Shown: positions 3,971 to 40,000 of the stretch, in pieces
Layout of the letters: each line of letters begins with the position of its first letter
How positions within the stretch are numbered: position 1 is the stretch's first letter
DNA from: Photobacterium sagamiensis
GTDB lineage: Bacteria; Pseudomonadota; Gammaproteobacteria; Enterobacterales; Vibrionaceae
Assembly: GCF_050337085.1 (NCBI RefSeq)
Contig: NZ_JAKJSP010000021.1
Location: 112,923-152,922, forward strand
Direction of reading: 5' to 3'
Length of the DNA: 40,000 nt
The notes under the pieces: generated by a model
The model's input: the letters and a program-made list of their open reading frames with translations, nothing else
Databases searched by the model: none
Told to the model about the DNA's origin: nothing
Position numbers and translations under genes: made by a program

Positions 3971-4024
3971 ATGATCGAGCAGTGAGAATCGAGTAACTCG
4001 TTTCTCTTCTCTAGCGACTGTTTT

Positions 4025-5560: not shown

Positions 5561-5582
5561 AAAAAGGGAGCCTGAGGCTCCC
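5561..5582 (-). terminator. Rho-independent terminator after fadL paralogue 2
   Basis: Hairpin gggagcc-tga-ggctccc (5566-5582). The A-run at 5561-5565 is a T-run on the minus strand. Confidence 0.7.
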
Positions 5583-5614
5583 TTAATCATACAGCTAGTG
5601 ATTGTTCGCTGAAA

Positions 5615-21300: not shown

Positions 21301-21591
21301 TTTGCAGGATAAAAAAGAATTTATAAAATCAATTATAAGCAAAAGCAGGATTAATAACTGTTTTTTAATTAACCGCTATTTTGCTGTTGAATCAGTCGCT
21401 TAATCTTCGATAATGGACGTCGTTATACAGGTCTCTCATCAGAGTCACTCTCGCGAAATGACCCGTTACTTCATATGATTGATAGAGCTGGGGGATCCAT
21501 TTATGACTCAGCTCTGGTCAAAAGCCTTGTTATTGCCGCGTCTTATTTATTCGCATTATTAGTTAATCAAACTGCCGTCTGTGGAGGGAAC

Positions 21592-25115: not shown

Positions 25116-25175
25116 GTATTAAGTTTAAATCGATGCGACAGGAGCCGGGATAAGCAGCCCCTGTGGCAGACGCCG

Positions 25176-26039: not shown

Positions 26040-26201
26040 TGTGACTCCAATTACCATGCTATTATTACCCCCCCTTCTGAGTGATCACTCAATGACTCAG
26101 GTGGGATAGTGTTATTACGAAACTACAGCACAAAATCAAGTGCTATTAAATAGTAATCATACTTTTATTAAATTGTGTTTTGGTTTTAATCAGGGATCAT
26201 C

Positions 26202-26621
26202 ATGAAACAAATTCTTACGCTAATGTTTGCATTAGTATTCGCTCTTGTTATTACGGCTTGTACTAACCTGGTTAAGACTGACACAGATATGAGCAATGTT
26301 AAGGGTTCACTGGCCTATGCTGAGCTTATTGCCTTACCAGACAATGCACGCATTACCGTGACTTTAGCTGATGTGTCTAAAATGGACGCCGCTGCCGAGG
26401 TGATCAGTAGCCAGTCATTTATTGCTGACGGTAAACAAGTGCCTTTTCACTTCCAGTTGGACTATAAGCTGGATGAAGTTAAGCAAAATCATACCTATGC
26501 AGTAAGCGCACGTATCGAAGTCAATGGCAAGCTGATGTTTATCACTGATACCGCCAACCATGTGATCACCGATCCCGCAGCAACGAACAAGCTAAATTTA
26601 ATGTTAGCTAAAGTAAAGTAA
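26202..26621 (+). CDS. ybaY: YbaY-family lipoprotein
   Basis: Lipobox LVITAC. Positioned between tesB and ybaZ exactly as in E. coli. Confidence 0.7.
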   Translation: MKQILTLMFALVFALVITACTNLVKTDTDMSNVKGSLAYAELIALPDNARITVTLADVSKMDAAAEVISSQSFIADGKQVPFHFQLDYKLDEVKQNHTYAVSARIEVNGKLMFITDTANHVITDPAATNKLNLMLAKVK

Positions 26622-26624
26622 CAC

Positions 26625-26951
26625 TCATTTCTTTTCGTCTGAGACAGGTACGCCATTCCAGCGGTATTTTTGCAGTGATATCTTGCCTGCCTCTGACACT
26701 TCCACCCCTTCGGCCAGCAGGCTCGCTCTCTGACGGAGCAAATCGCTGCCTTTCATCGAGATCATCCCTTTCGCATTAATCACGCGATGCCAGGGTAAAG
26801 TTGAACCTTCTGGCAGGTTAGCCATTAAGCGCCCGACCTGGCGTGCATAACCGGGAAAACCGGAAAATTTAGCAATATCTCCGTAAGTTGTGACTTTGCC
26901 GGAAGGAATTTGGTGAATTTGGGTGTAGATTTGACTTGGAAAGTCGTCCAT
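26625..26951 (-). CDS. atl: Alkyltransferase-like DNA-binding protein (YbaZ/Atl; MGMT DNA-binding domain, no active-site Cys motif seen)
   Basis: From the ATG at 26951: MDDFPSQIYTQIHQIPSGKVTTYGDIA...LPWHRVINAKG, the typical MGMT C-terminal fold. The ORF-track N-terminal extension to 27035 is unlikely. Confidence 0.75.
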   Translation of the reverse strand: MDDFPSQIYTQIHQIPSGKVTTYGDIAKFSGFPGYARQVGRLMANLPEGSTLPWHRVINAKGMISMKGSDLLRQRASLLAEGVEVSEAGKISLQKYRWNGVPVSDEKK

Positions 26952-27047
26952 ATTTAAACCTGAAGCTATAAATAAGATACATACCGATAGTTGCTGATTT
27001 CTATTAGTTCTCCTTCGCACTATCGGATAACGCAAGGAGGTGCTGCC

Positions 27048-27782
27048 ATGTTGTATGCCGCGTTACTCGTTTTGGTCAGCATTGCGCTGACTGTATTAGG
27101 TGTCAGTGCACTAGGTTATAGCCAGGGAGATCTTCCCGCACTGGCCCTTGCTATACCCGCGCTCTGGCTATTGCCCCAAGGTGGCGTTGCAGCCTGGCTG
27201 TTACTGATAGCGCTCGCTTCTTTTGGTATTGTACTGCCAGAACAACCACTCGCACTTTCCATTGGCATCTTTATGATGTTACCTATTTTTTCTGTGACTT
27301 TCTCGCCCAAAAGCAATTGGCAGCTGGGGGCGTTATTAATCTCGGTTGTGCTCGCGATGGATGTCGGGCTGATGGCACTGCAGAGCGAAGGCAAGCTTGC
27401 TGGCAGTGTGTTAGCGACTGTAGTTCAGATTGTTGCTGTTTCCGCGATTTGGTACGCAGCCAGAAACTGGCGTTATGTGGACGGTAATACCTGGTGGCCA
27501 CTGTTTTTGGTGATCCCCCTGTGGGTCGGAGGCATGGAGCATGCCGCGCTGGTGGCGTTATGTATTACCGGCTTGATTGCAGCCCTGCAAGGCATGAAGA
27601 AAGTGAAGCTTGGTGATTGGATCCCACGTTTAGTCTGGATTTTACCTGCGGTTGCTTTTGCAACGCTAGTTGTCACACCGCAATTTGAAGTCCCGAACCC
27701 GGTACTAGTGGCCTGGTTGCTGGTTTTGGGCTCGGCATTACTCGGAGAGTTCCTGCTCGAAGAACCCGAAGAAGAGCTGTAA
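27048..27782 (+). CDS. Hypothetical polytopic inner-membrane protein with an acidic C-terminus
   Basis: The ATG at 27048 follows an AAGGAGG RBS. Multiple hydrophobic helices. Ends in EEPEEEL. Confidence 0.6.
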   Translation: MLYAALLVLVSIALTVLGVSALGYSQGDLPALALAIPALWLLPQGGVAAWLLLIALASFGIVLPEQPLALSIGIFMMLPIFSVTFSPKSNWQLGALLISVVLAMDVGLMALQSEGKLAGSVLATVVQIVAVSAIWYAARNWRYVDGNTWWPLFLVIPLWVGGMEHAALVALCITGLIAALQGMKKVKLGDWIPRLVWILPAVAFATLVVTPQFEVPNPVLVAWLLVLGSALLGEFLLEEPEEEL

Positions 27783-27890
27783 ACCGAGAGTGAACCGCGA
27801 CAGAAAGCGGTTAATTCTTTCATATCAAACAGATTAGCCGTCAGTTTGGGTAATAAATCAGCAGTTGACATCGTGCAGGGCGTTAACGCC

Positions 27891-27919
27891 TTGCATTGTG
27901 TTCTGCCTTGTTGGATAAT
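27891..27919 (+). promoter_or_regulatory. Putative sigma-70 promoter of ffs
   Basis: TTGCAT (27891-27896), 17-bp spacer, GATAAT (27914-27919). This predicts a ~25-nt leader, comparable to the processed 4.5S precursor of E. coli. Confidence 0.4.
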
Positions 27920-27953
27920 CTCTCCCGTTCTCGAACAGAGACAAAGAATCTAT

Positions 27954-28069
27954 GGAGGCCCCCATTGGTCCTCCCGCAACACTAACCTGTGAACTCGGCC
28001 AGGCCCGGAAGGGAGCAACCGCAGCGGGTGACGTGTGTGCCGGGATGTGGCTGGTGGGGGCTTCCACCC
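27954..28069 (+). ncRNA. ffs: 4.5S RNA / signal recognition particle RNA
   Basis: Near-collinear with E. coli 4.5S RNA as I recall it: ...CCUCCCGCAAC...GGCCAGGCCCGGAAGGGAGCAACC...GUGUGCCGGGAUGUGGCUGG.... The terminal helix pairs GGAGGCCCCCA with UGGGGGCUUCC. It sits right after ybaZ, as in E. coli. Confidence 0.9.
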
Positions 28070-28080
28070 ATCTGCTGTTT
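28035..28080. repeat. att direct repeat, copy 1 (3' 35 nt of ffs plus 11 nt downstream)
   Basis: 46/46 identity with 34753-34798: gtgtgccgggatgtggctggtgggggcttccacccatctgctgttt. Confidence 0.9.
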
Positions 28081-28929
28081 GCCAATCTTATCAATAAGTT
28101 ACAGCTAACTCTCTCAAACTTATCCACTCTATGTGGATGACTTCCAATAGCGTTCTTCAAAACTATACACGTAAATCAATGTTTGGTCGATCCTCTCTGA
28201 CTACTGCGCAGAAGATGACAAAAACAGTAGGTTTACTACAGGTTTCACTTGGTTTGTGTATCGGACAAAGTCATCACTAAGATTTGAAGTAAGACTTTTT
28301 TGAACCTTATTCCTGTTATAGTTAAAACGCCATGAACCCAGTTGTGGTAAGGGATTAGAGAGTTTTAATGCCATAGGTTAGATAAAAATTAAGGCTGTCA
28401 GAGAGCTTATTTGATGGCTTAGAATTGCCCTGAAGGTTTGTCACATCTCTTTCGTCGCTATTTTCTGGCGGTGTATTAATAACAATAAAATGAATGCCCT
28501 TAATAGCTTCAAGGAAGCCTTAGATACTGAACCAGTAAGTTTATTCAAAGCTGTATAAGACTCCTCTGAAATCGGTCTTAGGGTTACTCACATGATTACG
28601 AATAATCACCTAGAAGATGATCCAGAAGCGTTCTGCCAACTACTACAGAAAGTTGGTGAAGAACTCACTTTAGCTGTTATGAGAAATCCAACAGAAGTGG
28701 AACTGGACAGCTTGAAGAATAGAAAACTTCATACTTCATTGATGATGTTATCAGTTCTATAACTGGTAGTGTGTCTACCTTGTTAGACATTGCTCAATGG
28801 TGATTTATCAGTCGTGAAACATAAAACACAGTTAAGTTGGTGATGTATCAGTCAAAATAAATTGAGTTCTCTTCAAATGCTTGCTTACTTGAAGTAAGGT
28901 ATTCTAGATACAATTTTTGGGAATCACTA

Positions 28930-30042
28930 ATGAAGTTGCGTTATTTTGCATACACCGTAAGACAACAAGATACACAACAAAAGATCTTGTATAACCTGAA
29001 ATTAGGCTTTGATGCTTTCTGTGAATACGATAACAAGAGTCTTAAAGGTGATTTCAAGAAAGGTGATGAAAAGTTATACCTTATCAAAGTAACCACCCAT
29101 CAAAACTTGTTCTATTTTGTTAGAACGAGTGATGACAGCTTTCTAAAACGTATTGATTTACAGAACATCACAATCGGTGAACTTCAAGATAAATTGAATG
29201 TGCATGAAAAAGTGGTTCATACTTCATACGTCTACATTTGTCCTGAAAGAGAAATTATTGGTTTTGCTAATGGTACGGGTTGTCCTAGACCTGATTCGCT
29301 CCAAGATTACATTAATCTTCTATTTGAGAAAGTTGGTTTAGACAATTTCAAAGTTAAACTAGAAGCCTTGAGTGAAAGTGCTACTAAAGAAGAGCTTATG
29401 AAAATGGATGTCGTTAGTAGTATGTTCATTGATACATCAGCAGATAGAACCCTTGGTAGATTGGTTTCTGGTTGGTTAACTGGTTCAGATGATGAGGATT
29501 TCAAGGGTAAAATTACTATCACGATCAAGCCAGAATCTAATAACATGAAAGATACATTCACAAAGATTCTGAACCGACATTCACTAGAACAGAATGATAG
29601 TGAAATTCTTCAGATTGGTGCTAAAGCTAAACACAATGAGCTTCACGGCCAGCTTGTTGATTACTGGTTAGATCAAAGCAGTAAACTTGCAGACCCTCTA
29701 AACCCTAGAGCAAAGCGTATGAACTTACATGAGCAGATTGAGGATAAAGTTGATAATAATACAAGACTGAAATCTGTATTCAAAAGTCACATTGACAACA
29801 TTCCTAACCTGAATGTGATGAAATCACATCCACAACTTGATGCTTATAAACATGTAGCCACGTATAAGCAACTTCTAAGTGCTATTCAAGATGAAGACAA
29901 ACAAGATGAAAGGGGCGCTAAGGAAATAGTAGCAGCAGCCCTTGGTCAATTAAAAAAGAAGCAAGCTAGAAGTTTATTAGATCGAGCAGACAACGACGAT
30001 AATGTTGCTGGCTTAGATACTAAACAACAAGCAGATCAATGA
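28930..30042 (+). CDS. RexA-like protein (abortive-infection sensor component) with a ~90-aa charged C-terminal extension
   Basis: Collinear motif matches to lambda RexA as I recall it: KLYLIKV..LFYFVRTSDDSFLKRI vs NYLYIHK..FLFTKTNDKSLVQKI; IIGFANGTGCPRPDSLQDY vs TIGFARTVFGPTTSDLTDF; ITITIKPE vs LDIVIKPK; KLADPLN vs HLSAPLN. Translationally coupled (ATGA) to a RexB-like TM protein. Confidence 0.65.
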   Translation: MKLRYFAYTVRQQDTQQKILYNLKLGFDAFCEYDNKSLKGDFKKGDEKLYLIKVTTHQNLFYFVRTSDDSFLKRIDLQNITIGELQDKLNVHEKVVHTSYVYICPEREIIGFANGTGCPRPDSLQDYINLLFEKVGLDNFKVKLEALSESATKEELMKMDVVSSMFIDTSADRTLGRLVSGWLTGSDDEDFKGKITITIKPESNNMKDTFTKILNRHSLEQNDSEILQIGAKAKHNELHGQLVDYWLDQSSKLADPLNPRAKRMNLHEQIEDKVDNNTRLKSVFKSHIDNIPNLNVMKSHPQLDAYKHVATYKQLLSAIQDEDKQDERGAKEIVAAALGQLKKKQARSLLDRADNDDNVAGLDTKQQADQ

Positions 30043-30500
30043 AAAAAACAGAGATAAGGAAGTTAAAGAGATTGATCATCTTCTCACCCATCTTTGGTGT
30101 GGTGATAGGCTTTCTGTACCTGATTCTCAAGCACTTTTCAGGTTGGTCTATAGGCTTCCTTAAAACCGAAACATTAGCGACTGTAGTTGCTGGTTTCAGC
30201 TTTACAATGCTTGGTTTCTTAGCTGCTATTGCTGCATTTATTTTCAGTCTTCAAAAGTACAGGTTTTTTAAACGCTGGATAGAAGATGGCAATGCTGAGG
30301 TGTTTTTTACCTTGTTCAAAACGTCCATAGTGTGCCTGTTTATAACGTTCGGCTTTAGCTTGTTTGTATTCACATCACAAGCCGCTGAATGGGCTTTTAG
30401 ATTCATGATGATGTCAGTCACAAATAACATTTTTCAGATGGCTATCATTTCATTTGTCATCATTGATAAGCTATCAATAGCAAAGCGTGAAGATGGTTAA
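30039..30500 (+). CDS. RexB-like small polytopic membrane protein
   Basis: 153 aa with ~4 TM helices. The size, topology and segment LATVVAGFSFTMLGFLAAIAAFIFSLQKYR resemble lambda RexB (LGATLSSYAGTMIAILIAALTFLIGSRTRR). 4-nt overlap with the upstream gene. Confidence 0.6.
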   Translation: MKKTEIRKLKRLIIFSPIFGVVIGFLYLILKHFSGWSIGFLKTETLATVVAGFSFTMLGFLAAIAAFIFSLQKYRFFKRWIEDGNAEVFFTLFKTSIVCLFITFGFSLFVFTSQAAEWAFRFMMMSVTNNIFQMAIISFVIIDKLSIAKREDG

Positions 30501-30532
30501 TGGCTAAAATAAGGCGAAATTAAGCATTGTAG

Positions 30533-31105
30533 TTATTTATTCCAGTGGCGTTTCACTGTCATAACTGAAACGCCCAGTTTCTCTGCCACCAGCGATTGAG
30601 TTAATCCCTCAGATTTTAGCTTTAATACTTTCTCTGTAGTCTTAACTGCTTTTGGTCTACCTAGTGTTTTTCCTTCTGACTTTGCACGCTCTAATCCCTC
30701 CTTGGTGCGCTCACGAATGCGATTACGCTCAAACTCAGCAAATGACATAAACACTTGCAACATCAATTTACCTTCACTGCTACTAAGGTTTGATACTGGC
30801 AAATCAAGACAAATTACCTCAATACCTTTTTTTATTAGCATGCTGACTGTTTGCTGGACATCAATGTTGTCACGTCCTAATCGGTCAAGTTTTAACACAA
30901 CCAAGGTATCACCAGTTTCCAGTTTGTGTTCAACCATCGTTTTAAACTCGTTACGTGCCATAGCCATTACAGAGCCTGATACAGTTTCAGTAATTACACG
31001 ACTATCAAGAACATCATAACCAGCGTTACGGATAGCTAGTATTTGGTTGTCTGTATTCTGCTCAATTGTTGATACACGGCAGTAAGCAAAGGTACGTTTA
31101 GTCAT
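30533..31105 (-). CDS. Small serine recombinase (resolvase/invertase family)
   Basis: From the ATG at 31105: MTKRTFAYCRVSTIEQ (catalytic Ser motif), LVVLKLDRLGRD, and a C-terminal HTH (LTQSLVAEKLGVSVMTVKRH). 190 aa. Confidence 0.88.
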   Translation of the reverse strand: MTKRTFAYCRVSTIEQNTDNQILAIRNAGYDVLDSRVITETVSGSVMAMARNEFKTMVEHKLETGDTLVVLKLDRLGRDNIDVQQTVSMLIKKGIEVICLDLPVSNLSSSEGKLMLQVFMSFAEFERNRIRERTKEGLERAKSEGKTLGRPKAVKTTEKVLKLKSEGLTQSLVAEKLGVSVMTVKRHWNK

Positions 31106-31122
31106 GGCGAACTTTCCCGATT

Positions 31123-31217
31123 GGTAACATTTAATGTGGTAACACAATAGCAGAGGTAACATAAAAGATAAACCCTATTTTGTTGTTACCTTTCTGATGG
31201 GGCTATTGTTGGTAACA
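31123..31217. promoter_or_regulatory. GGTAACA repeat array upstream of the recombinase (candidate recombinase binding/res-like or operator sites)
   Basis: GGTAACA at 31123, 31138, 31155 and 31211 (direct), and TGTTACC at 31184 (inverted). Inverted caatagc/gctattg at 31144-31150 / 31202-31208. Confidence 0.4.
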
Positions 31218-31510
31218 TTAAACGGTCGTTTATTAAGACTAAAGTTGCTCTACATGTTTAATACAGAAAAGCTGTCCCAATTAGTATGCTTCTTTTGCTG
31301 CTAGAGTTTAAATTGGCGTTTGTTCATCAGGTATGCGGAAATCCTGAGTATTTGTATAAAGGCAGTATAAGGTCACTTGATAGCGAGATTTCTGAAATTG
31401 AAATAGCAAATCTTTATGAACGTTATCTCTCATTAACAGAGTTTATCTATTGCCTGAATTTTTAGAATACTTTGTAATAGAATTACAATTTTATAAGCAG
31501 CAGTGTTCTT

Positions 31511-33001
31511 ATGGGGCGAGAAATTAATAAACATGGATTATCCCGAACTATTCCTCCAGAAGTAAAAGAAGAAATCCGAAAAGACTCTGGTTATGGTTGT
31601 GTTATGTGCGGCTCTTTATTCACTCACTATGAGCACATTGAACCTGAGTTTAAGGATGCAAAGGTTCATGATGCTAATAAGATGACGTTGCTTTGTGGGG
31701 GATGTCACGATCATGTTACTCAGAAGCGTTTCTCGAAGAAGGCAGTATGGAAAGCTCGGGAGTTACCAAAGACTAAAGAGCGCGGTTTTGTAAATCATTG
31801 GTATTCACCTCCTGACAATGAGCAAAAAATAAAACTAGGTTCATCTGTATTCGATCTAACTAGCGTAATTCTGAATGCCTTCGGAAAGCCCTTGATTTGG
31901 TTTGAGCCACCAGAGGAAGAGGATGAACCTGTCAGGTTAAATGCAATCTTCTACGATGCTGAATCGAACCCTATTGCTTACATCAATAGAAACCAATTCA
32001 TTGGCTTGGTCGGCTTTCATGACATCTCAGGTAAGGGGAGTTGTATTACAATACGCCCTAAGAAGAGACACATTGCTTTAGAATTACACGCGGTTGGAGA
32101 CGAACCAATACTAATAACCCGCCTGGTAATGGATTATCTTGGTACAAACTTTGAAGTGGAAAGGTCTGGTAAATTGTCCATAAAGCAAGGCGATTCAGTA
32201 CTCAAGCTCGACAACACCCAAATGAAAGGTTGTGGAACTGCATTTGTTTTTGGAGGTATCCCAAAGACAAGAAAACTATCTGAATCTGAGGTACTAACCC
32301 CCTTAAGTATTGCTATGGCTATACAACAACGTATTTCGAAAGAGATCAGAGCATACGATGGTGTTGTTGTCGGATGGCTTTTAGGCTCATGGATTGTAGA
32401 TAAGAGCTATGCGATTTCTGCGACTGTAAATTCGACATCAGAAACCTTATTAGTACATGGAATTACAGGGGAATACATAGGTGAATTAGTTCAATTCAAC
32501 AACTCTCTATCTATTATCACCTGTCTGGATGAGTATGAAAGTGGTGAGCCTATCTGGGTGAATTTTTTAGATAGGTCATCTCAAAATGTCAGACTACAAA
32601 AAGGGTTTGATGTTTGCTACCGAATTACAGATGAACGTCCTATTTATCAAGGTACTAGAAATCGTCTTTCGAGAAACACACCACCAGCGACAAGTATTGT
32701 TCCACCTAAACAGTGGAGAAAGACTGATGGCCCTATAACTCAAGGGAATCGAGTTACCATTGATTTTGAGGGGTTCATTGATGGAATACCATTTGAGGGG
32801 GGTAAAGCTGATAATTACAATCTTGTTATTGGTAGTAACAGAATGATTCAAGGTTTTGAGGAGAACTTAGTTGGGCACATGGCTGGTGAATGTTTTGAAA
32901 TTCCGTTAGCGTTTCCCGATAGGTATCATGCTGAACAATTGAAAGGTAAGAACGCAGTGTTTAGCGTATACATCCGTAGTGTTGAGAGTATGGACGTTTA
33001 A
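31511..33001 (+). CDS. HNH-nuclease / unknown central region / trigger-factor-like FKBP (PPIase) domain fusion protein
   Basis: aa 30-69: C-VM-C...YEHIEP...N...C-GG-CH (HNH/zinc-finger pattern). aa 400-496 (nt 32708-32998) are collinear with the E. coli trigger factor PPIase domain (RVTIDFEGFIDGIPFEGGKA...GSNRMIQGFEENLVGHMAGE...FPDRYHAEQLKGKNAVF vs [20 protein letters not shown]...[20 protein letters not shown]...FPEEYHAENLKGKAAKF). Confidence 0.7.
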   Translation: MGREINKHGLSRTIPPEVKEEIRKDSGYGCVMCGSLFTHYEHIEPEFKDAKVHDANKMTLLCGGCHDHVTQKRFSKKAVWKARELPKTKERGFVNHWYSPPDNEQKIKLGSSVFDLTSVILNAFGKPLIWFEPPEEEDEPVRLNAIFYDAESNPIAYINRNQFIGLVGFHDISGKGSCITIRPKKRHIALELHAVGDEPILITRLVMDYLGTNFEVERSGKLSIKQGDSVLKLDNTQMKGCGTAFVFGGIPKTRKLSESEVLTPLSIAMAIQQRISKEIRAYDGVVVGWLLGSWIVDKSYAISATVNSTSETLLVHGITGEYIGELVQFNNSLSIITCLDEYESGEPIWVNFLDRSSQNVRLQKGFDVCYRITDERPIYQGTRNRLSRNTPPATSIVPPKQWRKTDGPITQGNRVTIDFEGFIDGIPFEGGKADNYNLVIGSNRMIQGFEENLVGHMAGECFEIPLAFPDRYHAEQLKGKNAVFSVYIRSVESMDV

Positions 33002-33591
33002 GTTGGCCAACATTTAACAAGAGTTAGTGCTGTTAAGGTATGATTAAAATCGACAATCACATTTAATTTTGTATTCTCTAAACGATGGGTCGCTTACTGA
33101 ACATCTTTAAAACCTGTAATTAACATAGTTGTGATTTATCTTTATGTAAGGGTGTTACTGGAGGGAGGGACTGAAACCATTAATAGGTAATTAATAAGTC
33201 TTTATAAAGTCCATTGAAAAACAAAACAAGAAAACGAGATAAGAAGAAAAGTAAAAACTAGACATCTGTTAGTGATTCAAAGAACTTTATAAGTATTAAT
33301 AATACCATACTTTTTCACAAAAGTCAATACCTTAGATTGATGTTAACCTTGTTTTATTTGTATTGTAATAGGAGATTGTTTTATTTTAGTTTCAAATCTT
33401 CCTTGTTGTAAATTTTACTTTTTGTGAATCTAATACGTGTTTAAATTCCAATAAAAGAGCTACTCCACTAATGATGTGAATGATAGTTTAAATGAGCTTG
33501 TAATTCTTTCTATGGGATTCTTAATAAAATAAAATAGACAATTACCTCATCATTGTAAAAGCTGTCAGTAATGTTTACATGACGTTTAAAG

Positions 33592-34635
33592 TTATAATCT
33601 GTTAACAAGGTCAAGTAGTTTATCTGGCGTTATACTCTTTCCGTATCGATCATAGGTAATGCTGCCGTTAGAGTGGCCTAGCAGGGCTGCTGTGTATTGA
33701 AGCGGAATACCATCTACTTTGAGTTTAGTTGCGACATAGTGTCTTATAGAGTGAAACTCAGGTAAGTCGTTATTAGATCTCCAGCGATTGAACCATTTCC
33801 CGAAATAGTGGGCACAATTGCCTTTGTAGGGCTTGAATTCGGGGAAGACTCTAGCATTGGTTGGCTTACTTTTTGCGTACACTACAAAGTATTTTAGTTC
33901 TTTATGAACAGGTATCAAGCGCTTGGTTGACTCATTTTTCACTGATTGCCAATCATAAGAGTCATCGACACTAATGCACCAGATACCATTAACTTTTACA
34001 ACATCACTTTCGCTCAGTTGCACAATCTCATTACAACGCATCCCTGTATAAAGACCTATCTTGATTATCCATTGTTTGTGAAGGTCTAGTGTAGCAAGAT
34101 TTCTAACCAGTTTTTTTACTTGATCTGTGGTGTATGCTTTCCGCTGATCTTTGGCTGATTGCATAACTTTTTCTTTTAACCCATTAAAAGGATTTGTTAT
34201 GTGGATGTCATGATGTTTGTCCATCCAGTAAAAAAAAGCTCCAATCTTCGAAGCATGTTTGTTCTTTGTGGGGACTGATACGTTTAACGTTTTTAGGAAC
34301 TTGAATGCTTGCTGCTTGCTTAATGGATCGCTTGTGTATGCCAAGTACCGAGTGATAAATCTCTCAATTGTAAGTATTTCACGCTCTGCGACTTTTAAAG
34401 ACTTAAAAGATAGGTAAGCCTTCAATTCTGATTGAAAATCAATCACTTCAGGTTCATTTTCTGGTTCTGTTCTCTTAGATACTGCGCATGAAAGTAATGC
34501 ATACACTTTTTGTTGTGCTAGTCGTTTATCCCTTGTTCGAAGTGACCTTTTTACTTCTTTTCTTTTACCGTTTGATTGCGTTGTAATTTTACGGAAGTAC
34601 CAAATACCTTGTTTGGATAACCACAGATTAGACAT
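33592..34635 (-). CDS. int: Tyrosine recombinase/integrase of island 1
   Basis: Start preferred at the ATG at 34635 (MSNLWLSKQGIWYFRK). Catalytic pattern TGMRCNEI ... HSIRHYVAT ... LLGHS ... ITYDRYGK. Its 5' end lies ~120 bp from the att copy. Confidence 0.9.
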   Translation of the reverse strand: MSNLWLSKQGIWYFRKITTQSNGKRKEVKRSLRTRDKRLAQQKVYALLSCAVSKRTEPENEPEVIDFQSELKAYLSFKSLKVAEREILTIERFITRYLAYTSDPLSKQQAFKFLKTLNVSVPTKNKHASKIGAFFYWMDKHHDIHITNPFNGLKEKVMQSAKDQRKAYTTDQVKKLVRNLATLDLHKQWIIKIGLYTGMRCNEIVQLSESDVVKVNGIWCISVDDSYDWQSVKNESTKRLIPVHKELKYFVVYAKSKPTNARVFPEFKPYKGNCAHYFGKWFNRWRSNNDLPEFHSIRHYVATKLKVDGIPLQYTAALLGHSNGSITYDRYGKSITPDKLLDLVNRL

Positions 34636-34752
34636 GACGTATGGCCTTATTTCAAAAATAGAAAAATGGCTATAAGTAGTCATCCACGTTGTATGTATTA
34701 GTTTGTGTTGGTTGCCAGTAACGTATTGATTTTATTCCGCAAAATTTGCGTG

Positions 34753-34798
34753 GTGTGCCGGGATGTGGCTGGTGGGGGCTTCCACCCATCTGCTGTTT
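34753..34798. repeat. att direct repeat, copy 2 (junction between island 1 and island 2)
   Basis: Identical to 28035-28080. Flanked on both sides by outward-reading integrase genes. Confidence 0.9.
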
Positions 34799-34870
34799 AG
34801 TGTTTTCAATCAATACCTTACCTAAAATTGTCTGCTCAGGTGATCCACTTTATGTGTATTACTAGAGGCA

Positions 34871-36004
34871 ATGATGACGACAAATCTATGGTTATCTCCG
34901 CACGGTATCTGGTACTTTCGTAAAGTATATCTCCTGCCTTCGGGTAAACGTAAAGAAACCAGAAAAAGCCTGAGAACGCGGTGTAAGTGCACTGCCAAAG
35001 AGCAGGTGATCAAGCTGCTGGCTTGCGAGCAATCATCACGCAGCCCTTCTCCATCTACATTCCCCAGCCAATGCAACGCTCCCTCGTCACCTGTCACCAT
35101 TACGCCTGACTACTTGTCTGAACACCTTGAGCACTACATTGAGATTAAGGCTCGGCGCTGCTGTGAACGCGAGCTACTGACGATCAGGCGGTTTATTACT
35201 CGGTACATTGCGTATCTGAGGCAGAACGACACCTTTGATGCGATCAGCTCATCAACAGCGGCTAGTTTTCTTGATTCTTTGACTGTCGCCATTCCCACCA
35301 AGAACAAGCATGCGAGCAAAATAGGGGCTTATCTGCATTGGCTGGATAAGCGTGCTGATATCGAGGTGAAAAATCCGTTCTCATTGTTGAAAGAGAAGCA
35401 CACGGTTGCTGTCCAGGAGCAGAGGAAAGCATACAGCCTCGCCCAAGCCCAGCGGTTAATTCAGCACTGCTCAGGTTTTGATGAGTGGAAACGGTGGGTG
35501 GTTTTGCTGGGGCGCTACACAGGGATGCGATGCAACGAAATTTGTCAGCTTCACCGTGACGATATTGTTCAGGTTGAAGGCGTCTGGTGCGTCAGTATCA
35601 ACCAAGTCAAAGACTATCAAATTTTAAAGACAGCCAGCAGCAAAAGGATCATTCCACTCCCTAAACACCTCCCTGACCAGTTCGATCTTGAGGCATTCCT
35701 GGCGTTTGCTATACGCAGGGAAGGGCGGCTGTTTCCTGAAGCAACCATCTACAAGGGTAATTGCGCCCATTACTTTGGCAAGTGGTTTAACCGCTGGCGC
35801 AAGAAGCACAGCCTGCCTGAATTTCATTCCCTGCGTCATTTAGTGGCAACAGAACTGAAACAAGCTGGTATTCCTGAGCAATTTTCTGCCGCAATTCTGG
35901 GACACAGCCATCGAGGAATTACCTATAACCGGTATGGCAAAGCTGTCTCTCCCTTGAGGTTAGTTTTGCCTATGAGGTTCATTTCTTCGGTCAAATCGAA
36001 CTAA
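34871..36004 (+). CDS. int: Tyrosine recombinase/integrase of island 2
   Basis: Homologous to the island 1 integrase at both ends (NLWLSPHGIWYFRK; YKGNCAHYFGKWFNRWR; HSLRHLVAT; LGHS; ITYNRYGK). Confidence 0.9.
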   Translation: MMTTNLWLSPHGIWYFRKVYLLPSGKRKETRKSLRTRCKCTAKEQVIKLLACEQSSRSPSPSTFPSQCNAPSSPVTITPDYLSEHLEHYIEIKARRCCERELLTIRRFITRYIAYLRQNDTFDAISSSTAASFLDSLTVAIPTKNKHASKIGAYLHWLDKRADIEVKNPFSLLKEKHTVAVQEQRKAYSLAQAQRLIQHCSGFDEWKRWVVLLGRYTGMRCNEICQLHRDDIVQVEGVWCVSINQVKDYQILKTASSKRIIPLPKHLPDQFDLEAFLAFAIRREGRLFPEATIYKGNCAHYFGKWFNRWRKKHSLPEFHSLRHLVATELKQAGIPEQFSAAILGHSHRGITYNRYGKAVSPLRLVLPMRFISSVKSN

Positions 36005-36372
36005 TCGTTATTTTTTCGTATTTAAGATGAGTATTACATCACATTTTTTAGAATAAAAAGTGAGGTAAACAAATTGTTAAAACTACATAAATTACTGATA
36101 AGTAACACTTATAATGTTCGAAAGCATGCTGTTGCATCCTTTGTGGTCCGTATGGCTAATGTGTTGATTATTTAGACTAAAAATCTTAAAAAACAATTGT
36201 TGCGCGACTGTTGCGGGTATGTGTATTTTGTTAATTTCGTTTTTATAAGTAACACTTAAGATGTTGATTTATAAGGAAAAACCAAAATGTTGCATTGTCG
36301 TATTTTAATGTGCATTTTATATTGATGCAGCAAGGTGACTGCATAATATTTTTTCTATTAAAAGGAAACATT

Positions 36373-36900
36373 ATGACTCGTGAAAATGTTACCCGCTCGA
36401 CTATCTGGCGCTGGATTCGTGATGGTGCGATGCCACAACAGCACACTATTGGTGGGGAGACTGTTGGGTGTTCTGAAGATGTCATTGAGAAGTGGAGTGC
36501 AGAGCGTCAAGTCAAAAAAACAGGTGTAACGTCTTTTCGCTCTGGTGAGGCATGGCACTTACTCGAACTGTTCTTAACTGGACGTCGTTTAACTCGTGGT
36601 GATATCCAAATGGAATGTGGACACCAGGATGCAAATCAGTTGTTGCATGTTCTCCGCAATGAAATGCTTGTTCCTGTTACTTGCCAAAAGGGGCGTGGAG
36701 GGCTGCCTTCTGTCTGGTATATGAAAAAGGAAGATATCGACATGTACCAGAATCACCGCACCAAGCAGAAAAAATGTCAAAAACGTAAGCTGGCACAGCG
36801 TGATGAAGCAAATTCAATGAAGAAACTTCATCAATGGGTGGAAGAAATCGGGGAAGATGAGTTTATTCAGCTTATTAAAGAGGTAGGCAAAAAAAAGTAG
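36373..36900 (+). CDS. AlpA-like HTH regulator/excisionase with an extended C-terminal domain
   Basis: The ATG at 36373 follows an AAAGGAAA RBS. The N-terminus has STIWRWIRDGAMPQ, the typical AlpA/phage Xis-type HTH. A ~125-aa C-terminal part of unknown function follows. Confidence 0.65.
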   Translation: MTRENVTRSTIWRWIRDGAMPQQHTIGGETVGCSEDVIEKWSAERQVKKTGVTSFRSGEAWHLLELFLTGRRLTRGDIQMECGHQDANQLLHVLRNEMLVPVTCQKGRGGLPSVWYMKKEDIDMYQNHRTKQKKCQKRKLAQRDEANSMKKLHQWVEEIGEDEFIQLIKEVGKKK

Positions 36901-37000: not shown

Positions 37001-39358
37001 ATGAAATTCAAAATTATCGAAGTCGCTGTAGACTTCCTACAAAATCATTTTTCTGTTATTCCACTGGAAAAGAACGGAAAAAAACCAGCAGTTGCATCTT
37101 GGAAGCAATACCGCGAAAAACCAGCCTCACCAGATCTTTTTAAAGACCACCAAGGCAACCTTGGGCTGATTACGGGGCGCAATGGTGACCTGTGCATCCT
37201 AGTCATCGACATTGACCGAACAGGCGAAGGCATCGAACAGGCAAAGCAGGAGTTCGTGGAAAAATATGGTCCTGTGGATTGGGAGTCAGCCTGTTGTCAG
37301 GGAACCCCCTCAGGTGGTCGTCATTACATCTTCCTGGTTCCTGACGGCATCGAAATCTCTAACCGAGTCGCGATCATCGACGGTGTCGATATCCGTGGTG
37401 AGGGCGGCTATATCGTCATTGATCCATCAGAAGCGCCCAGCAAGCTTACTGGTAAGTTAGAAGCTTATCACTGGTTAAACGATATCCTATTACATGAAAC
37501 GGCTGAGATTAGCGTAGAAGTTGCTACGGCAATTGCCCAATCCGGCAAGGAGAAGCCTAAAGAGAGCAGCAGTCAGGAATCAGTACCTCAGCCGACCTAC
37601 AGCACTGTAAACACCCCTTATGGCGCAAAGGCATTAGACGGGTGCATTGGTGAAGTATTAGCGGCACCAGAGGGTACACGTAACGACACGCTGAATACCC
37701 AGGCTTTTAATGTTGGGCGGCTCATTGGTGGGATGCTTGTCACCCCGAATGATGGTTATTACGGGCTAGTTAATGCAGCAATTAATATTGGTTTGAGTGA
37801 ACAGGAAGCGAAGGCAACCATCGGTAGTGGGATTGAAGCGGGAGTGATGGAACCTCGTGTACTTGATGACCATCCCGACACCGATGAAGTTCCGAATGCG
37901 AACTCTCAAGAGTGGGGTGAGCCGCAAGCATTTACGCCAGAACTAGAGCCTGTTTTACCGTTGTGTAAGGGGATGATCCCTGACGTTTTTTACACCCATG
38001 CGAAAATCGAAGCTCGAAAGATGGACAATACATCTATCGATTATGTTGTCATGGCGATAATTGCCTGTGCTAGCGCTGTCATAGGCACCACTCGTATGAT
38101 TCGCCCCAAAAAGCATGACTTCGGTTGGCTTATTGCCCCTGTTTTATGGTGTATTGCGGTGGGTTCACCATCGACAAAAAAGACACCAGCATTAAAAGTG
38201 GGCACCAAGCTTCTCTCCTTGGCTCAAGGCGTATTTGATGAGGAGTATGCTACAGCAGTTAACGAGGTCGAGGCTGATAAGGCTGTTAATGACTTAATTA
38301 TTCAGAACAAAGAAAAAGATGCAAAAAAAGCCGTCCAAAACGGTGATACTGAAAAAGCTAAAGCATTAATGAACGAGATGCGTGAACTGAAAATAGAGTC
38401 ACTAAACCACCGGATGGTTTTAGTGAACGATGCGACCATAGAAGCTATCGCTATCCGTGCTGAATCGAACCCTGAAGGCTGCTTAGTATTTCGTGATGAA
38501 CTGTCAGGCTTACTTGCCATGATCGACCGAGCAGACAATGCCAATGATCGTGCCTTTTATCTAGAAGGTTTTGGCGGGGATAGTTCATACACTCAAGAAC
38601 GTGTCGGTCGCCCCAACGTCTACATTAAACGCTTAGGCATTTGGCTCTTAGGCGGGATCCAGCCGGATAAGCTGATTCCTTACCTAAGATCCCGTAAGCA
38701 GGGCGAAGATAATGACGGCTTTATCGAACGCATGCAGTATATGGTATTCCCTGACCATCAGGGTTCGGAATATATCGATGAGCCTGCAGACACAATCCCC
38801 AACATGATGGCTGGAGTCCGTTTTATATTCCTAGCAGATCTGAAGTTTGATGAGCATGGAAACCCTGTTGTTTGCACCTTTACCGATGATGCCCAAGTCA
38901 TATGGGACAAATGGGCAAAAGGCATGCATCAGCGTCAAAATGCGGCTTCTCCCGAATGGCAGGCGATCCTTGGTAAGTATCCGGCATTGTGCGCGAAGTT
39001 CGCCCTTGTCTTCCACTTGTGCGAGTCACCCGACACCAAAGTTACCCAAGATGCTCTAGAGATGGCAATACGGTTTATGGGCTATATCGAGAGCCATGCC
39101 CGTCGTATCCATTCTTACTGGCTGCATGAAGATCAGGTAAGTTCAGCCAAGCAGTTGCTTGATAAGCTTGACACCCTCAGCCAGCCATTTTCAAAGAAAT
39201 CGGTTGCTGACAAGAACTGGAAGGGTCTTGGTACTCAGGAACGTGATAAGGCTCTAAAGCAGCTAGAGGAGCATGGCTACATCCGACGCGTTGAGACACC
39301 GAATCCTGCGGGGCGTCCATCCGTATTCTTCTACAAACACCCTGATTACTGCCAGTAA
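37001..39358 (+). CDS. Replication protein: N-terminal bifunctional primase-polymerase (Prim-Pol) domain plus DUF3987/helicase-like C-terminal domain
   Basis: Prim-Pol motifs LVIDIDR, SGGRHYIF and VDIRGEGGYIVIDPS. Linker motif TRNDTLNTQAFNVGRL. P-loop-like GSPSTKKT in the C-terminal half. Confidence 0.8.
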   Translation: MKFKIIEVAVDFLQNHFSVIPLEKNGKKPAVASWKQYREKPASPDLFKDHQGNLGLITGRNGDLCILVIDIDRTGEGIEQAKQEFVEKYGPVDWESACCQGTPSGGRHYIFLVPDGIEISNRVAIIDGVDIRGEGGYIVIDPSEAPSKLTGKLEAYHWLNDILLHETAEISVEVATAIAQSGKEKPKESSSQESVPQPTYSTVNTPYGAKALDGCIGEVLAAPEGTRNDTLNTQAFNVGRLIGGMLVTPNDGYYGLVNAAINIGLSEQEAKATIGSGIEAGVMEPRVLDDHPDTDEVPNANSQEWGEPQAFTPELEPVLPLCKGMIPDVFYTHAKIEARKMDNTSIDYVVMAIIACASAVIGTTRMIRPKKHDFGWLIAPVLWCIAVGSPSTKKTPALKVGTKLLSLAQGVFDEEYATAVNEVEADKAVNDLIIQNKEKDAKKAVQNGDTEKAKALMNEMRELKIESLNHRMVLVNDATIEAIAIRAESNPEGCLVFRDELSGLLAMIDRADNANDRAFYLEGFGGDSSYTQERVGRPNVYIKRLGIWLLGGIQPDKLIPYLRSRKQGEDNDGFIERMQYMVFPDHQGSEYIDEPADTIPNMMAGVRFIFLADLKFDEHGNPVVCTFTDDAQVIWDKWAKGMHQRQNAASPEWQAILGKYPALCAKFALVFHLCESPDTKVTQDALEMAIRFMGYIESHARRIHSYWLHEDQVSSAKQLLDKLDTLSQPFSKKSVADKNWKGLGTQERDKALKQLEEHGYIRRVETPNPAGRPSVFFYKHPDYCQ

Positions 39359-39388
39359 CCAGCAACCATATCTCGGGGATCTCTGATT

Positions 39389-39450
39389 TGTAGGGTTTCT
39401 CGGGTTTCTGGAGGGGGGGGGGACCCTTAGCAAATACCTCCCCCCACCTT
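39389..39450. repeat. Repeat unit 1: GTAGGGTTT/TCGGGTTT iterons plus G10...C-tract hairpin
   Basis: tgtagggtttctcgggtttctggagggggggggggaccc...cctccccccacc. Begins ~30 bp after the replicase stop. Confidence 0.8.
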
Positions 39451-39544
39451 TACCTATGCGACACTGAAATTTATCTGATTTTCAAACAGCCAAACTTTAT
39501 TGGTTTGGTTCAATATCCACGTAACTGAAAAAGGAAATTAAGTT

Positions 39545-39766
39545 ATGACAATGCCTGACCAACTGGCTGAAAAAGTTATCGTTGCAGATAATCACATTGT
39601 TATTCGCGACGGATATTATGAAATCCCACTAGATGACTGTAACACTCCAGAGAAGCTTATAAGCTGGGTTATATATTTGCTTGAAAAAAAATGGATTAAT
39701 CAATCAATCATTTATCGTTTTGTTAAAACCGCATGCAAGGAGAATAACCTTAAGATCCCTTATTAA
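39545..39766 (+). CDS. Hypothetical 73-aa protein
   Basis: An AAAAGGAAA RBS-like sequence precedes the ATG. Lies between repeat units 1 and 2. No recognisable motif. Confidence 0.45.
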   Translation: MTMPDQLAEKVIVADNHIVIRDGYYEIPLDDCNTPEKLISWVIYLLEKKWINQSIIYRFVKTACKENNLKIPY

Positions 39767-39848
39767 ATTACTTGGGGGGCGGGTTGCTTAATCGCGGCTC
39801 CCCCCTTAACACCATACAAACCCGAGAAATTGCCAGATAAATTGAGTT

Positions 39849-39910
39849 TGTAGGGTTTATAGGGTTTGTGGAGGGGGGGGCTGGACCACAGCAAAATACC
39901 CCTCCCCCCC
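39849..39910. repeat. Repeat unit 2 (same architecture as unit 1)
   Basis: tgtagggtttatagggtttgtggaggggggggctggacc...cccctccccccc. A third unit begins at 39979 (gtagggtttgtagggtg) and is cut by the window end. An inverted iteron tacaaacccgagaa lies at 39815-39828. Confidence 0.8.
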
Positions 39911-40000
39911 TTCACATATGCCCATCCAAGATGTGACCGATTTTTCGAAGCCCGAAACTTTGACAAGTAATGCTAATTCGTAGGGTTTGTAGGGTGATTG

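What the first reader, a model, noticed from the sequence alone, without database searches (positions are those of the whole stretch)
27954..34798. The SRP (4.5S) RNA gene ffs is used as an integration site, with a 46-bp att repeat and two tandem islands
The sequence gtgtgccgggatgtggctggtgggggcttccacccatctgctgttt occurs twice, perfectly: at 28035-28080 and at 34753-34798. Copy 1 is the 3' 35 nt of ffs plus 11 nt downstream. An integrase gene sits next to copy 2 on each side. This is the classical signature of integration into the 3' end of a small RNA gene. However, the target is ffs rather than the usual tRNA or tmRNA gene. The site appears to be occupied by two different elements in tandem, making it a hotspot for accessory and defence cargo.
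Basis: partly seen in the sequence, partly recalled or inferred. Interest (0 to 1): 0.7.

Follow-up and report, generated by a model that had tools for sequence, protein, structure and literature searches.

The report
Integrase islands inserted in ffs gene
Two mobile DNA islands, one carrying a RexAB-like anti-phage system and one a small self-replicating satellite-like element, sit one after the other in the 3' end of the essential SRP RNA gene (ffs) of Photobacterium sagamiensis; they were put there by a dedicated family of tyrosine integrases that also targets ffs in E. coli, Klebsiella, Aeromonas and Pseudoalteromonas, so this is a well-supported but fairly ordinary new example of a known integration strategy.

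Summary
The 46-mer occurs exactly twice, with none expected by chance. ffs is a full-length Rfam SRP RNA hit. Copy 1 is the last 35 nt of ffs plus 11 nt downstream. Two tyrosine integrase genes, 49% identical, flank copy 2.

Relatives of these integrases (35-76% identity) lie about 100 bp downstream of ffs in E. coli, Klebsiella, Aeromonas, Pseudaeromonas, Pseudoalteromonas and two other Photobacterium species. In E. coli, removing the island between its 22-bp repeats restores the ffs-ybaA junction seen in 5358 of 5426 complete genomes.

Island A (28081-34752, low GC) carries RexA/RexB, a serine recombinase, an HNH-PPIase fusion and int1. Island B (34799 onward) carries int2, AlpA and a PrimPol-helicase. 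Its far end lies beyond the window, so a third att copy is unverified.

Using ffs as an attachment site is not new. It is reported for Firmicute prophages, as a Vibrio cholerae hotspot and for type I-F3b CRISPR transposons, which occupy the same site in Photobacterium relatives. I found no description of this gammaproteobacterial integrase family.

One oddity remains: island A is flipped relative to all canonical relatives.

Verdict: real, a new member of a known kind, moderate interest.

The parts
27954..28069 (+). ffs (4.5S / small SRP RNA gene), intact; its last 35 nt are part of the att repeat
   Evidence: Rfam RF00169 at 27963-28059, 73.5 bits, full length. Ends were set by alignment to E. 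coli and Photobacterium ffs. The sequence is identical across the repeat to ffs at an unoccupied P. profundum-group site, L026.
28035..28080 (+). att copy 1 (attL of island A): ffs 3' 35 nt plus 11 nt downstream; contains the dyad GGTGG..CCACC and a terminator-like hairpin with a T-tract
   Evidence: Exact 46-bp repeat. Terminator-like site at 28053-28072. The minimal core shared with relatives is GCTGGTGGGGGCTTCCACC.
28090..28151 (+). Left arm of island A: IHF-like site ATCAATAAGTTAC (28090-28102) and palindrome ATCCAC-N5-GTGGAT (28122-28138); resembles a canonical int-proximal (P') arm but no int follows
   Evidence: Inverted repeat I1 with 34669-34730, 62 nt, 73% complementary. Aligns with int-proximal arms of relatives.
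28930..30042 (+). RexA-like abortive-infection sensor (island A cargo)
   Evidence: Pfam PF15969 RexA 2.6e-34, above cut-off. PADLOC RexA 3.3e-31.
30039..30500 (+). RexB-like membrane protein, overlapping the rexA stop
   Evidence: PADLOC RexB 8.1e-10 over 123 of 141 profile positions. No Pfam hit.
30533..31162 (-). Small serine recombinase (resolvase/invertase type)
   Evidence: PF00239 2.1e-36 and HTH_7. The best NCBIfam hit is the Mpi invertase family, below cut-off. Serine recombinases also occur in the ffs islands of E. coli, P. damselae and Pseudoalteromonas, and in the element upstream of the ffs fragment in Photobacterium L001.
31511..33001 (+). HNH-nuclease-like N-terminus fused to a trigger-factor-type FKBP PPIase domain (cargo, function unknown)
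   Evidence: PF00254 1e-12. TIGR00115 positions 140-233, 7.9e-31, below cut-off. phrog_6544 1.3e-47 and several HNH phrogs.
33592..34683 (-). int1, tyrosine integrase of island A (NCBI start gives 33592-34635)
   Evidence: PF00589 1.2e-18. Catalytic R-K-H-R-H-Y invariant in the family alignment. Identical to P0006, P. sagamiensis. The closest relative looked up, P0007 (57% identical), is next to ffs in P. damselae.
34669..34730 (-). Right arm of island A (int1-proximal): palindrome-like site 34680-34700 and inverted IHF-like site GTAACGTATTGAT (34718-34730)
   Evidence: Inverted repeat I1. Alignment A2.
34753..34798 (+). att copy 2: ffs 3' fragment only; shared junction (attR of island A and attL of island B)
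   Evidence: Exact repeat. The sequence to its left is not ffs.
34799..34870 (+). int2-proximal (P') arm of island B: IHF-like site ATCAATACCTTAC (34809-34821) and palindrome ATCCAC-N5-GTGTAT (34843-34859)
   Evidence: Conserved in Photobacterium, Aeromonas and Pseudaeromonas loci.
34871..36004 (+). int2, tyrosine integrase of island B
   Evidence: PF00589 1.4e-16. 100% identical to P0001, P. sagamiensis. 76% identical to the ffs-adjacent integrase of P. atrarenae.
36295..36900 (+). AlpA-type excisionase/regulator candidate (likely start at 36373)
   Evidence: PF05930 Phage_AlpA 1.2e-4, above cut-off. phrog_66 excisionase/regulator 6.4e-7.
37001..39358 (+). PrimPol-DUF3987 primase/helicase (replication module of island B)
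   Evidence: PF09250 1.5e-19 and PF13148 3.1e-66. Helicase and primase phrogs. 80% nucleotide identity to the element in Photobacterium sp. L001.
39387..39995 (+). Repeated GTAGGGTTT / G-run-C-run units flanking a small gene (39545-39766); possible origin region of island B. The window ends inside island B.
   Evidence: Direct repeat families D1, D5 and D9. GTAGGGTTT occurs 3 times against 0.29 expected. The sequence was read.

Best explanation
Two integrative elements of one lineage have inserted by tyrosine-integrase site-specific recombination into the 3' end of ffs. Each element carries in its attP a copy of the end of ffs. Here that copy is 35 nt of the gene plus 11 nt downstream, including a terminator-like hairpin. 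Recombination with the chromosomal ffs therefore replaces the gene's 3' end with an identical element-borne copy, so the essential gene stays intact at attL. The displaced copy is left at the far end.

A second element using the same core then recombined with one of these copies. This gave ffs/att - island A - att - island B. Island A is a 6.7-kb low-GC defence island carrying RexAB, an HNH-PPIase fusion, a serine recombinase and int1. Island B is a satellite-like replicon carrying int2, an AlpA-type excisionase candidate, a PrimPol-helicase and repeat-rich putative origin DNA.

Shown: the repeats, the intact ffs, the integrases with a complete catalytic set, and the family-wide association with ffs including precise empty sites. 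Inferred: the crossover lies in the dyad GGTGG-N6-CCACC; the IHF-like sites and palindromes in both arms act as accessory sites; AlpA acts as the directionality factor; the order of the two insertions; and that both elements are still mobile.
For: - Exact 46-bp direct repeat, 0 expected by chance.
- Full-length ffs at attL, identical in the repeat to ffs of relatives that lack an island.
- Two integrases with invariant R-K-H-R-H-Y.
- GC drop across island A.
- The integrase family lies about 100 bp downstream of ffs in E. coli, Klebsiella, Aeromonas, Pseudaeromonas, Pseudoalteromonas, P. atrarenae and P. damselae. All 6 look-ups were positive.
- The E. coli island is bounded by a 22-bp repeat covering the last 17 nt of ffs plus 5 nt. 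Homology with empty-site genomes stops exactly at the end of that repeat. The reconstructed empty site is contiguous in 5358 of 5426 genomes, and 51 genomes carry the integrase.
- Tandem arrays with internal ffs fragments recur in P. atrarenae, P. damselae, Photobacterium sp. L001 and Aeromonas L036.
- An island B-like element (int plus PrimPol, 77-80% nucleotide identity) sits next to an ffs fragment in another species.
- Upstream flank conserved, islands absent, in all Photobacterium relatives fetched.
Against: - No circular attP junction or restored attB for these particular elements was seen. The 26-nt core gave no hit in viral contigs and one uninformative hit in metagenomes.
- No strain-level relative of P. 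sagamiensis with an empty site was available, and the window's own proteins are not in the contig index.
- The right end of island B and a third att copy lie outside the window.
- Island A has no recognisable excisionase.
- Island A is inverted relative to canonical relatives, so its present mobility is uncertain.
Confidence: 0.85

Rival explanations
1. This is one composite, largely fossil island rather than two independently mobile elements. The internal 46-mer would be a relic junction. Island A, whose body is inverted and which lacks an excisionase, would no longer excise on its own. Only the outer boundaries, or nothing, would still be active.
For: - Island A is flipped relative to all canonical relatives, with int1 at the distal end.
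- Its left end is an int-proximal-type arm with no int.
- No AlpA/Xis-type gene was found in island A.
- Integrase remnants and decayed junctions are common at this locus in relatives: L008, L009, L010, L012 and the second copy in L020.
Against: - Both 46-bp copies are perfect.
- int1 is full length with all catalytic residues.
- Both arms retain the IHF-like site and the palindrome.
- The same divergent int-att-int geometry occurs independently in Aeromonas finlandensis, which suggests a viable arrangement rather than random decay.
Confidence: 0.25
2. The insertion was made by a Tn7-like or type I-F3b CRISPR-associated transposon, the class of element already known to home downstream of ffs, and not by the integrases.
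For: - ffs is a documented I-F3b CAST attachment site (PMC11406308).
- Such elements (TnsA/B/C, TniQ, Cas) occupy the site in Photobacterium relatives L024 and L033, and Tn7-type end repeats occur next to ffs in L022 and L026.
Against: - The window has no tnsABC, tniQ or cas genes between 28 and 40 kb.
- It has no Tn7-type end repeats after ffs.
- The duplication is 46 bp of ffs itself, not a 5-bp target duplication about 10 nt downstream of ffs.
Confidence: 0.02
3. The repeat is a chance match or a local duplication of the ffs 3' end unrelated to mobile DNA.
For: None beyond the bare possibility.
Against: - 0 matches in 100 shuffles.
- Integrase genes lie on both sides of copy 2, and GC composition shifts.
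- The same architecture occurs in many genera.
Confidence: 0.01

Closest known systems
Genomic islands and satellites integrated in the 3' end of tRNA/tmRNA genes by tyrosine integrases (P4 at leuX, CP4-57 at ssrA; Williams 2002 and the Islander/TIGER framework, cited in PMC12884075)
   Same: A direct repeat made of the RNA gene's 3' end, the gene regenerated at attL, the integrase next to the att site, tandem arrays at one site, and accessory or defence cargo.
   Different: The target is ffs, not a tRNA or tmRNA gene. These integrases lack the P4-type N-terminal domains in Pfam: they hit only PF00589, plus a weak DUF6538 match. The att arms are quasi-symmetric, and the int gene can lie on either side of the core.
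Firmicute prophages that integrate into ffs: S. pneumoniae PPH015 group (PMC8637289) and E. faecalis phiEf11 (PMC12540744)
   Same: The attB site lies inside ffs, a tyrosine integrase is used, and short identical cores are present (about 21-27 nt).
   Different: Those are complete temperate phages of Gram-positive hosts. phiEf11 is reported to alter the 3' end of the 4.5S RNA, whereas here ffs is restored exactly. No sequenced phage carries a close relative of int2: there are only partial matches of 28-36% identity.
Type I-F3b CRISPR-associated Tn7-like transposons that home to ffs (PMC11406308); ffs listed as a mobile-element and defence hotspot in V. cholerae (PMC12082036)
   Same: The same chromosomal locus serves as a safe harbour for mobile and defence cargo. 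These elements are found at the same site in Photobacterium relatives.
   Different: The mechanism is different: guide-RNA-directed transposition a few nucleotides downstream of ffs, with Tn7 ends, rather than conservative recombination inside ffs. No Tns or Cas genes are present in the window.
P4-like satellites / PICI-type elements (int - alpA - primase/helicase)
   Same: Island B has int, an AlpA-type regulator, a primase-helicase and repeat-rich DNA after it. Aeromonas relatives at ffs carry int plus a P4-alpha-like Toprim/D5_N primase.
   Different: The primase is of PrimPol-DUF3987 type. No capsid-remodelling or packaging genes are seen in the 5.2 kb available. No helper phage is known.
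Lambda RexAB abortive-infection system
   Same: An adjacent, overlapping rexA-rexB gene pair with RexA above the Pfam cut-off.
   Different: It is carried by a non-phage island instead of a prophage immunity region. The RexB match is weak. Function was not tested.

Membership tests
Bacterial small SRP RNA (ffs, Rfam RF00169) | Covariance-model score above the gathering threshold over the full model | tested here: met
   73.5 bits against 40, model positions 1-97 of 97, not truncated.
Tyrosine recombinase / phage integrase family | Catalytic domain PF00589 with the conserved R, K, H-x-x-R, H and Y residues | tested here: met
   PF00589 above cut-off for both proteins. R200, K233, H295, R298, H321 and Y331 are invariant in 11 family members. 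The closest solved structures are the Tn1549 Int and XerA catalytic domains, at weak E-values of about 1e-3.
Site-specific integrative island in a stable-RNA gene | Direct repeats consisting of the 3' end of the RNA gene, one of them completing an intact gene | tested here: met
   46-bp exact repeat. Copy 1 completes ffs and copy 2 is a bare 3' fragment.
Site-specific integrative island in a stable-RNA gene | Integrase gene adjacent to an att site, with relatives of the integrase showing the same target | tested here: met
   int1 and int2 lie 70 and 72 bp from copy 2. Relatives in 7 other genomes or genera are next to ffs.
Site-specific integrative island in a stable-RNA gene | Unoccupied site in related genomes with the breakpoint at the repeat | tested here: met
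   Met for the family in E. coli: 5358 of 5426 genomes are contiguous across the reconstructed site, and homology ends at the repeat. For Photobacterium, other species lack both islands while the upstream flank is conserved. No same-species comparison was possible.
Site-specific integrative island in a stable-RNA gene | Excision to a circle with attP and restoration of attB | not testable with these tools
   No read data are available. The core pattern is absent from viral contigs and gave one uninformative metagenome hit.
Tandem array of two complete elements | A third att copy bounding island B | not testable with these tools
   The window ends at 40000 inside island B. The P. sagamiensis contig could not be fetched. 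Tandem arrays are seen in relatives.
Tn7-like / type I-F3b CAST at ffs | tnsA/B/C, tniQ and cas genes, with Tn7-type terminal repeats starting a few nt after ffs | tested here: not met
   None are present in 28-40 kb. The sequence after ffs lacks the end repeats seen in L022, L024 and L033.
Prophage | Capsid, tail, terminase and lysis genes | tested here: not met
   All sizeable ORFs of island A and of the visible part of island B are assigned otherwise. There are no close integrase or primase relatives in 50,697 phage records.
RexAB defence system | Adjacent RexA and RexB homologues | tested here: met
   RexA: PF15969 2.6e-34 and PADLOC 3.3e-31. RexB: PADLOC 8.1e-10. The genes overlap by 4 nt. 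Anti-phage activity was not tested.
P4-like satellite / PICI | int, alpA and a primase-helicase, plus genes that hijack helper-phage capsids or packaging | tested here: inconclusive
   The first three are present. Hijacking genes are not seen, but the element is cut by the window end.

The most novel reading that the evidence does not exclude
The ffs islands may form a distinct, undescribed lineage of gammaproteobacterial elements with three linked properties. First, a dedicated integrase family with strict ffs specificity from Enterobacterales to Vibrionaceae and Alteromonadales. Second, a quasi-palindromic attP, with an IHF-like site plus a palindrome on both arms around a dyad-symmetric core. 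Third, orientation relative to ffs that can switch by inversion, either of the island body between its arms or of an int cassette bracketed by inverted att sites as in the E. coli island, possibly helped by the co-occurring serine recombinase. On this reading the divergent int-att-int arrangement seen here and in Aeromonas is a regulated or functional state rather than decay.
Probability: 0.2. Interest if true: 0.55.

Novelty: new member of a known kind. Interest (0 to 1): 0.4.

Why it matters
It adds ffs, an essential single-copy RNA gene, to the stable-RNA genes used as safe integration sites in Gammaproteobacteria. It also identifies the integrase family responsible, including in E. coli and Klebsiella.

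Island-finding tools that look only at tRNA and tmRNA genes (the Islander algorithm) would not search ffs, and pipelines that do not annotate ffs might record such islands as intergenic. The conserved core and arms give a ready-made search pattern.

The locus shows two mechanistically unrelated kinds of mobile element, integrase islands and CRISPR-guided Tn7-like transposons, competing for the same few nucleotides. This makes it a compact place to look for new defence cargo. An ffs-specific integrase could also serve as a genome-engineering tool, because the site is present in nearly all these bacteria.

Tried and rejected
- Exact-protein look-ups of window proteins (lipoprotein, RexA, MdlB, int2) to fetch the rest of the P. 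sagamiensis contig or sister strains all failed. The third att copy and a same-species empty site therefore could not be examined.

- Scans of viral contigs with the integrase alignment and with the 26-nt core gave one distant hit and nothing, respectively. The single metagenome scan gave one short, uninformative locus.

- I considered reverse-orientation integration through a palindromic overlap to explain the flipped island A. I rejected it because it would leave a palindromic junction and a changed ffs 3' end, which is not observed.

- I looked for an E. coli-type inverted att copy in the window and found none, allowing up to 3 substitutions in the core.

- The repeats TATGTCAnCTTATGG upstream of some integrase remnants first looked like integrase arm sites. 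They match the Tn7-type end repeats seen beside ffs in the CAST-occupied loci. In L011 they bound a cargo of RND-efflux and fatty-acid-type genes lying between ffs and the integrase remnant. They are better read as transposon ends.

- Literature searches for a named ffs-specific integrase or ffs island in Enterobacteria or Vibrionaceae found none. The TIGER/Islander papers held in the library do not mention ffs.

Full report
OBSERVATION

The 46-mer GTGTGCCGGGATGTGGCTGGTGGGGGCTTCCACCCATCTGCTGTTT occurs exactly twice, at 28035-28080 and 34753-34798. No further copy appears with up to three mismatches, and none appeared in 100 shuffles. Rfam places a full-length bacterial small SRP RNA at 27963-28059, scoring 73.5 bits against a gathering score of 40. 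There is no tRNA or tmRNA gene in the window. Alignment with E. coli and other Photobacterium ffs genes puts the gene at about 27954-28069. Copy 2 has unrelated sequence on its left and is a bare 3' fragment. GC content drops from 0.47-0.51 to 0.33-0.40 between the two copies.

GENE CONTENT

Island A (28081-34752) encodes:
- a RexA homologue above the Pfam cut-off, with an overlapping RexB-like membrane protein;
- a small serine recombinase;
- a 496-aa fusion of an HNH-nuclease-like domain with a trigger-factor-type PPIase domain;
- tyrosine integrase int1 on the minus strand, with its 5' end 70 bp from copy 2.

Island B begins at 34799 and encodes:
- int2 on the plus strand, 72 bp from copy 2;
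- an AlpA-type excisionase/regulator candidate;
- a PrimPol-DUF3987 primase-helicase;
- repeat-rich DNA around a small phage-type gene.

The window ends inside island B. int1 and int2 are 49% identical. Within their family, the residues R, K, H-x-x-R, H and Y are invariant.

ORGANISM AND COMPARATIVE TEST

int2 and int1 are identical to two Photobacterium sagamiensis proteins on one 153-kb contig. The same search shows a family of 35-76% identical integrases in Photobacterium, Enterobacterales, Aeromonas, Pseudoalteromonas and a few others.

Every relative whose genomic context I could fetch lies next to ffs:
- E. coli and Klebsiella, in the conserved mdlAB-(glnK-amtB)-tesB-ybaY-atl-ffs neighbourhood;
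- Aeromonas;
- Pseudaeromonas;
- Pseudoalteromonas;
- P. atrarenae;
- P. damselae.

In E. coli the island is bounded by a 22-bp repeat made of the last 17 nt of ffs plus 5 nt. 51 of 5426 complete genomes carry the integrase. In the others, homology stops exactly at the end of that repeat. An empty site reconstructed by deleting the island is contiguous in 5358 genomes. This is the classical proof of precise site-specific insertion, obtained for the family rather than for this strain.

Among Photobacterium relatives, the 8 kb upstream of ffs is conserved at 72-74% identity right up to ffs. Island A is absent everywhere. Island B has a counterpart only in another ffs-associated element, the int plus PrimPol element of L001 at 77-80% identity.

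THE ATT SITE

The core shared by all loci is the end of ffs. It contains the dyad GGTGG-N6-CCACC and, in this window, a terminator-like hairpin with a T-tract. The elements carry different lengths of ffs: 17+5 nt in E. coli, 35+11 nt here, about 60 nt or more in P. atrarenae, and about 95 nt in Aeromonas. The crossover most likely lies in the shared terminal segment; this is an inference.

Between the core and the int start codon, Photobacterium, Aeromonas and Pseudaeromonas elements share an IHF-consensus-like site (WATCAANNNNTTR) and a palindrome, ATCCAC-N5-GTGGAT. The opposite arm carries the same two motifs in mirror image in P. atrarenae. Both ends of island A carry them too, as a 62-nt, 73% inverted repeat just inside the direct repeats.

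MECHANISM

The best explanation is conservative recombination by the element-encoded tyrosine integrase between attP and the ffs 3' end. The element supplies an identical replacement for the displaced gene end, so the essential RNA is unchanged. Relatives with the same core then insert serially and build tandem arrays.

Such arrays, with internal ffs fragments and often with decayed integrase genes, also occur in P. atrarenae, P. damselae, Photobacterium sp. L001 and Aeromonas. The order in which A and B arrived cannot be told, because the two copies are identical. AlpA in island B is the likely directionality factor. Island A has none that I can recognise.

AN UNEXPLAINED FEATURE

All canonical relatives read ffs - core - arm - int(+), often followed by a serine recombinase on the same strand. 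This includes P. damselae, whose integrase (57% identical) is the closest relative of int1 that could be looked up. In the window, int1 and the serine recombinase are both on the minus strand and int1 abuts the distal repeat. As a result int1 and int2 diverge from the shared internal att. The left end of island A looks like an int-proximal arm with no int. The same divergent geometry occurs in Aeromonas finlandensis.

The simplest reading is an inversion of the island body between its inverted-repeat arms, which is equivalent to a flip of the core within a quasi-symmetric attP. This was not tested. Reverse integration through a palindromic overlap is excluded, because it would alter the ffs end.

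A related curiosity appears in the E. coli island. It has a complete attP, together with the first 30 nt of int, in inverted orientation directly after int. The int gene is therefore bracketed by inverted att cores.

OTHER USERS OF THE SITE

In P. profundum-group and P. swingsii-group genomes, the same site holds type I-F3 CRISPR-associated Tn7-like transposons (TnsA/B/C, TniQ, Cas) or their remnants. These begin about 10 nt after ffs. In several loci, DNA bounded by such transposon ends lies between ffs and an older integrase remnant. The window itself has no such element.

WHAT IS KNOWN

- ffs has been reported as attB for S. pneumoniae PPH015-group prophages (PMC8637289) and for E. faecalis phiEf11, which was presented as novel in 2025 (PMC12540744).
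- It is listed among mobile-element and defence hotspots in V. cholerae (PMC12082036).
- It is one of four attachment sites of type I-F3 CASTs (PMC11406308).

I found no paper describing the gammaproteobacterial ffs-specific tyrosine integrase family or the E. coli ffs island. No sequenced phage carries a close relative of the integrase or the primase.

The finding is therefore a new member of a known kind: an integrase island in the 3' end of a stable RNA gene. Its modest extra features are family-wide ffs specificity, symmetric arms, variable orientation and coexistence with CASTs.

VERDICT

- Observation: confirmed.
- Interpretation: supported, with the third att copy unverified.
- Confidence in the mechanism: about 0.85.
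- Interest: 0.4.

Noticed in passing
window 31511-33001 (+): A 496-aa protein fuses an HNH-nuclease-like N-terminal region (phrog_6544 1.3e-47, several HNH phrogs) to a trigger-factor-type FKBP PPIase domain (TIGR00115 positions 140-233, PF00254). It lies between RexAB and int1 and is a candidate defence gene of an unusual architecture.
   Followed up: partly
window 28090-28151 and 34669-34730; int1 33592-34683 (-): Island A is inverted relative to all canonical ffs islands, with int and the serine recombinase on the minus strand and int at the distal end. It has 62-nt, 73% inverted-repeat arms just inside the direct repeats, and int1 and int2 diverge from the shared att. The cause is unexplained.
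   Followed up: partly
L004 (Aeromonas finlandensis) 3160-4205: The same divergent arrangement occurs here: an integrase N-terminal fragment on one strand and an integrase on the other, either side of an ffs 3' core with mirrored IHF-like sites and palindromes.
   Followed up: partly
L014 (E. coli) 11100-11420; also L015-L018, L021: Directly after the integrase stop codon lies a complete attP (distal arm, 22-bp core, int-proximal arm and the first 30 nt of int) in inverted orientation. It is identical to the island's two ends, so int is bracketed by inverted att cores. It is absent in Klebsiella L044. It could be an invertible cassette or a rearrangement scar.
   Followed up: partly
L024, L033 (full); L022, L023, L025, L026 (remnants); L002, L008, L011, L012: Type I-F3 CAST / Tn7-like elements (TnsA/B/C, TniQ, Cas; cargo includes KAP NTPase, TIR and RND efflux genes) sit about 10 nt after ffs in Photobacterium relatives. 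Their end repeats (TATGTCAnCTTATGG) separate ffs from older integrase remnants in several loci. Two unrelated mobile-element types therefore compete for the same site.
   Followed up: partly
window 30533-31162 (-); L021 20600-21232; L050 11502-12380; L048 8709-9350; L001 9273-9782: A small serine recombinase accompanies the ffs-type tyrosine integrase in about half of the islands examined (29-35% identity where measured by tblastn). Its role is unknown; it could act in multimer resolution, inversion or neither.
   Followed up: partly
window 39387-39450, 39847-39910, 39948-39995: Repeated units with GTAGGGTTT (3 occurrences against 0.29 expected) and G-run/C-run inverted repeats flank a small phage-type gene (39545-39766, phrog_12459) just after the PrimPol-helicase gene. 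They may be the origin or iterons of island B. An 84-nt piece recurs in P. atrarenae L020 at 11578-11660.
   Followed up: partly
window 28053-28072 and 34771-34790: A terminator-like hairpin (GGTGGG..CCCATC) followed by a T-rich tail lies wholly inside the 46-bp repeat. The element therefore also supplies the probable ffs 3' end/termination signal.
   Followed up: no
L036, L039, L042 (Aeromonas) 2169-5920: An internal att copy carries about 95 nt of ffs and still scores 54 bits as an SRP RNA. It is preceded by another island with a shorter integrase-family gene and a DUF4145 protein. This is a tandem array in which the element-borne fragment is almost a whole ffs.
   Followed up: partly
window 21475-28069: The mdlA-mdlB-tesB-ybaY-atl-(membrane protein)-ffs neighbourhood is syntenic from E. 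coli and Klebsiella to Photobacterium. This makes the ffs site easy to locate across these orders.
   Followed up: partly
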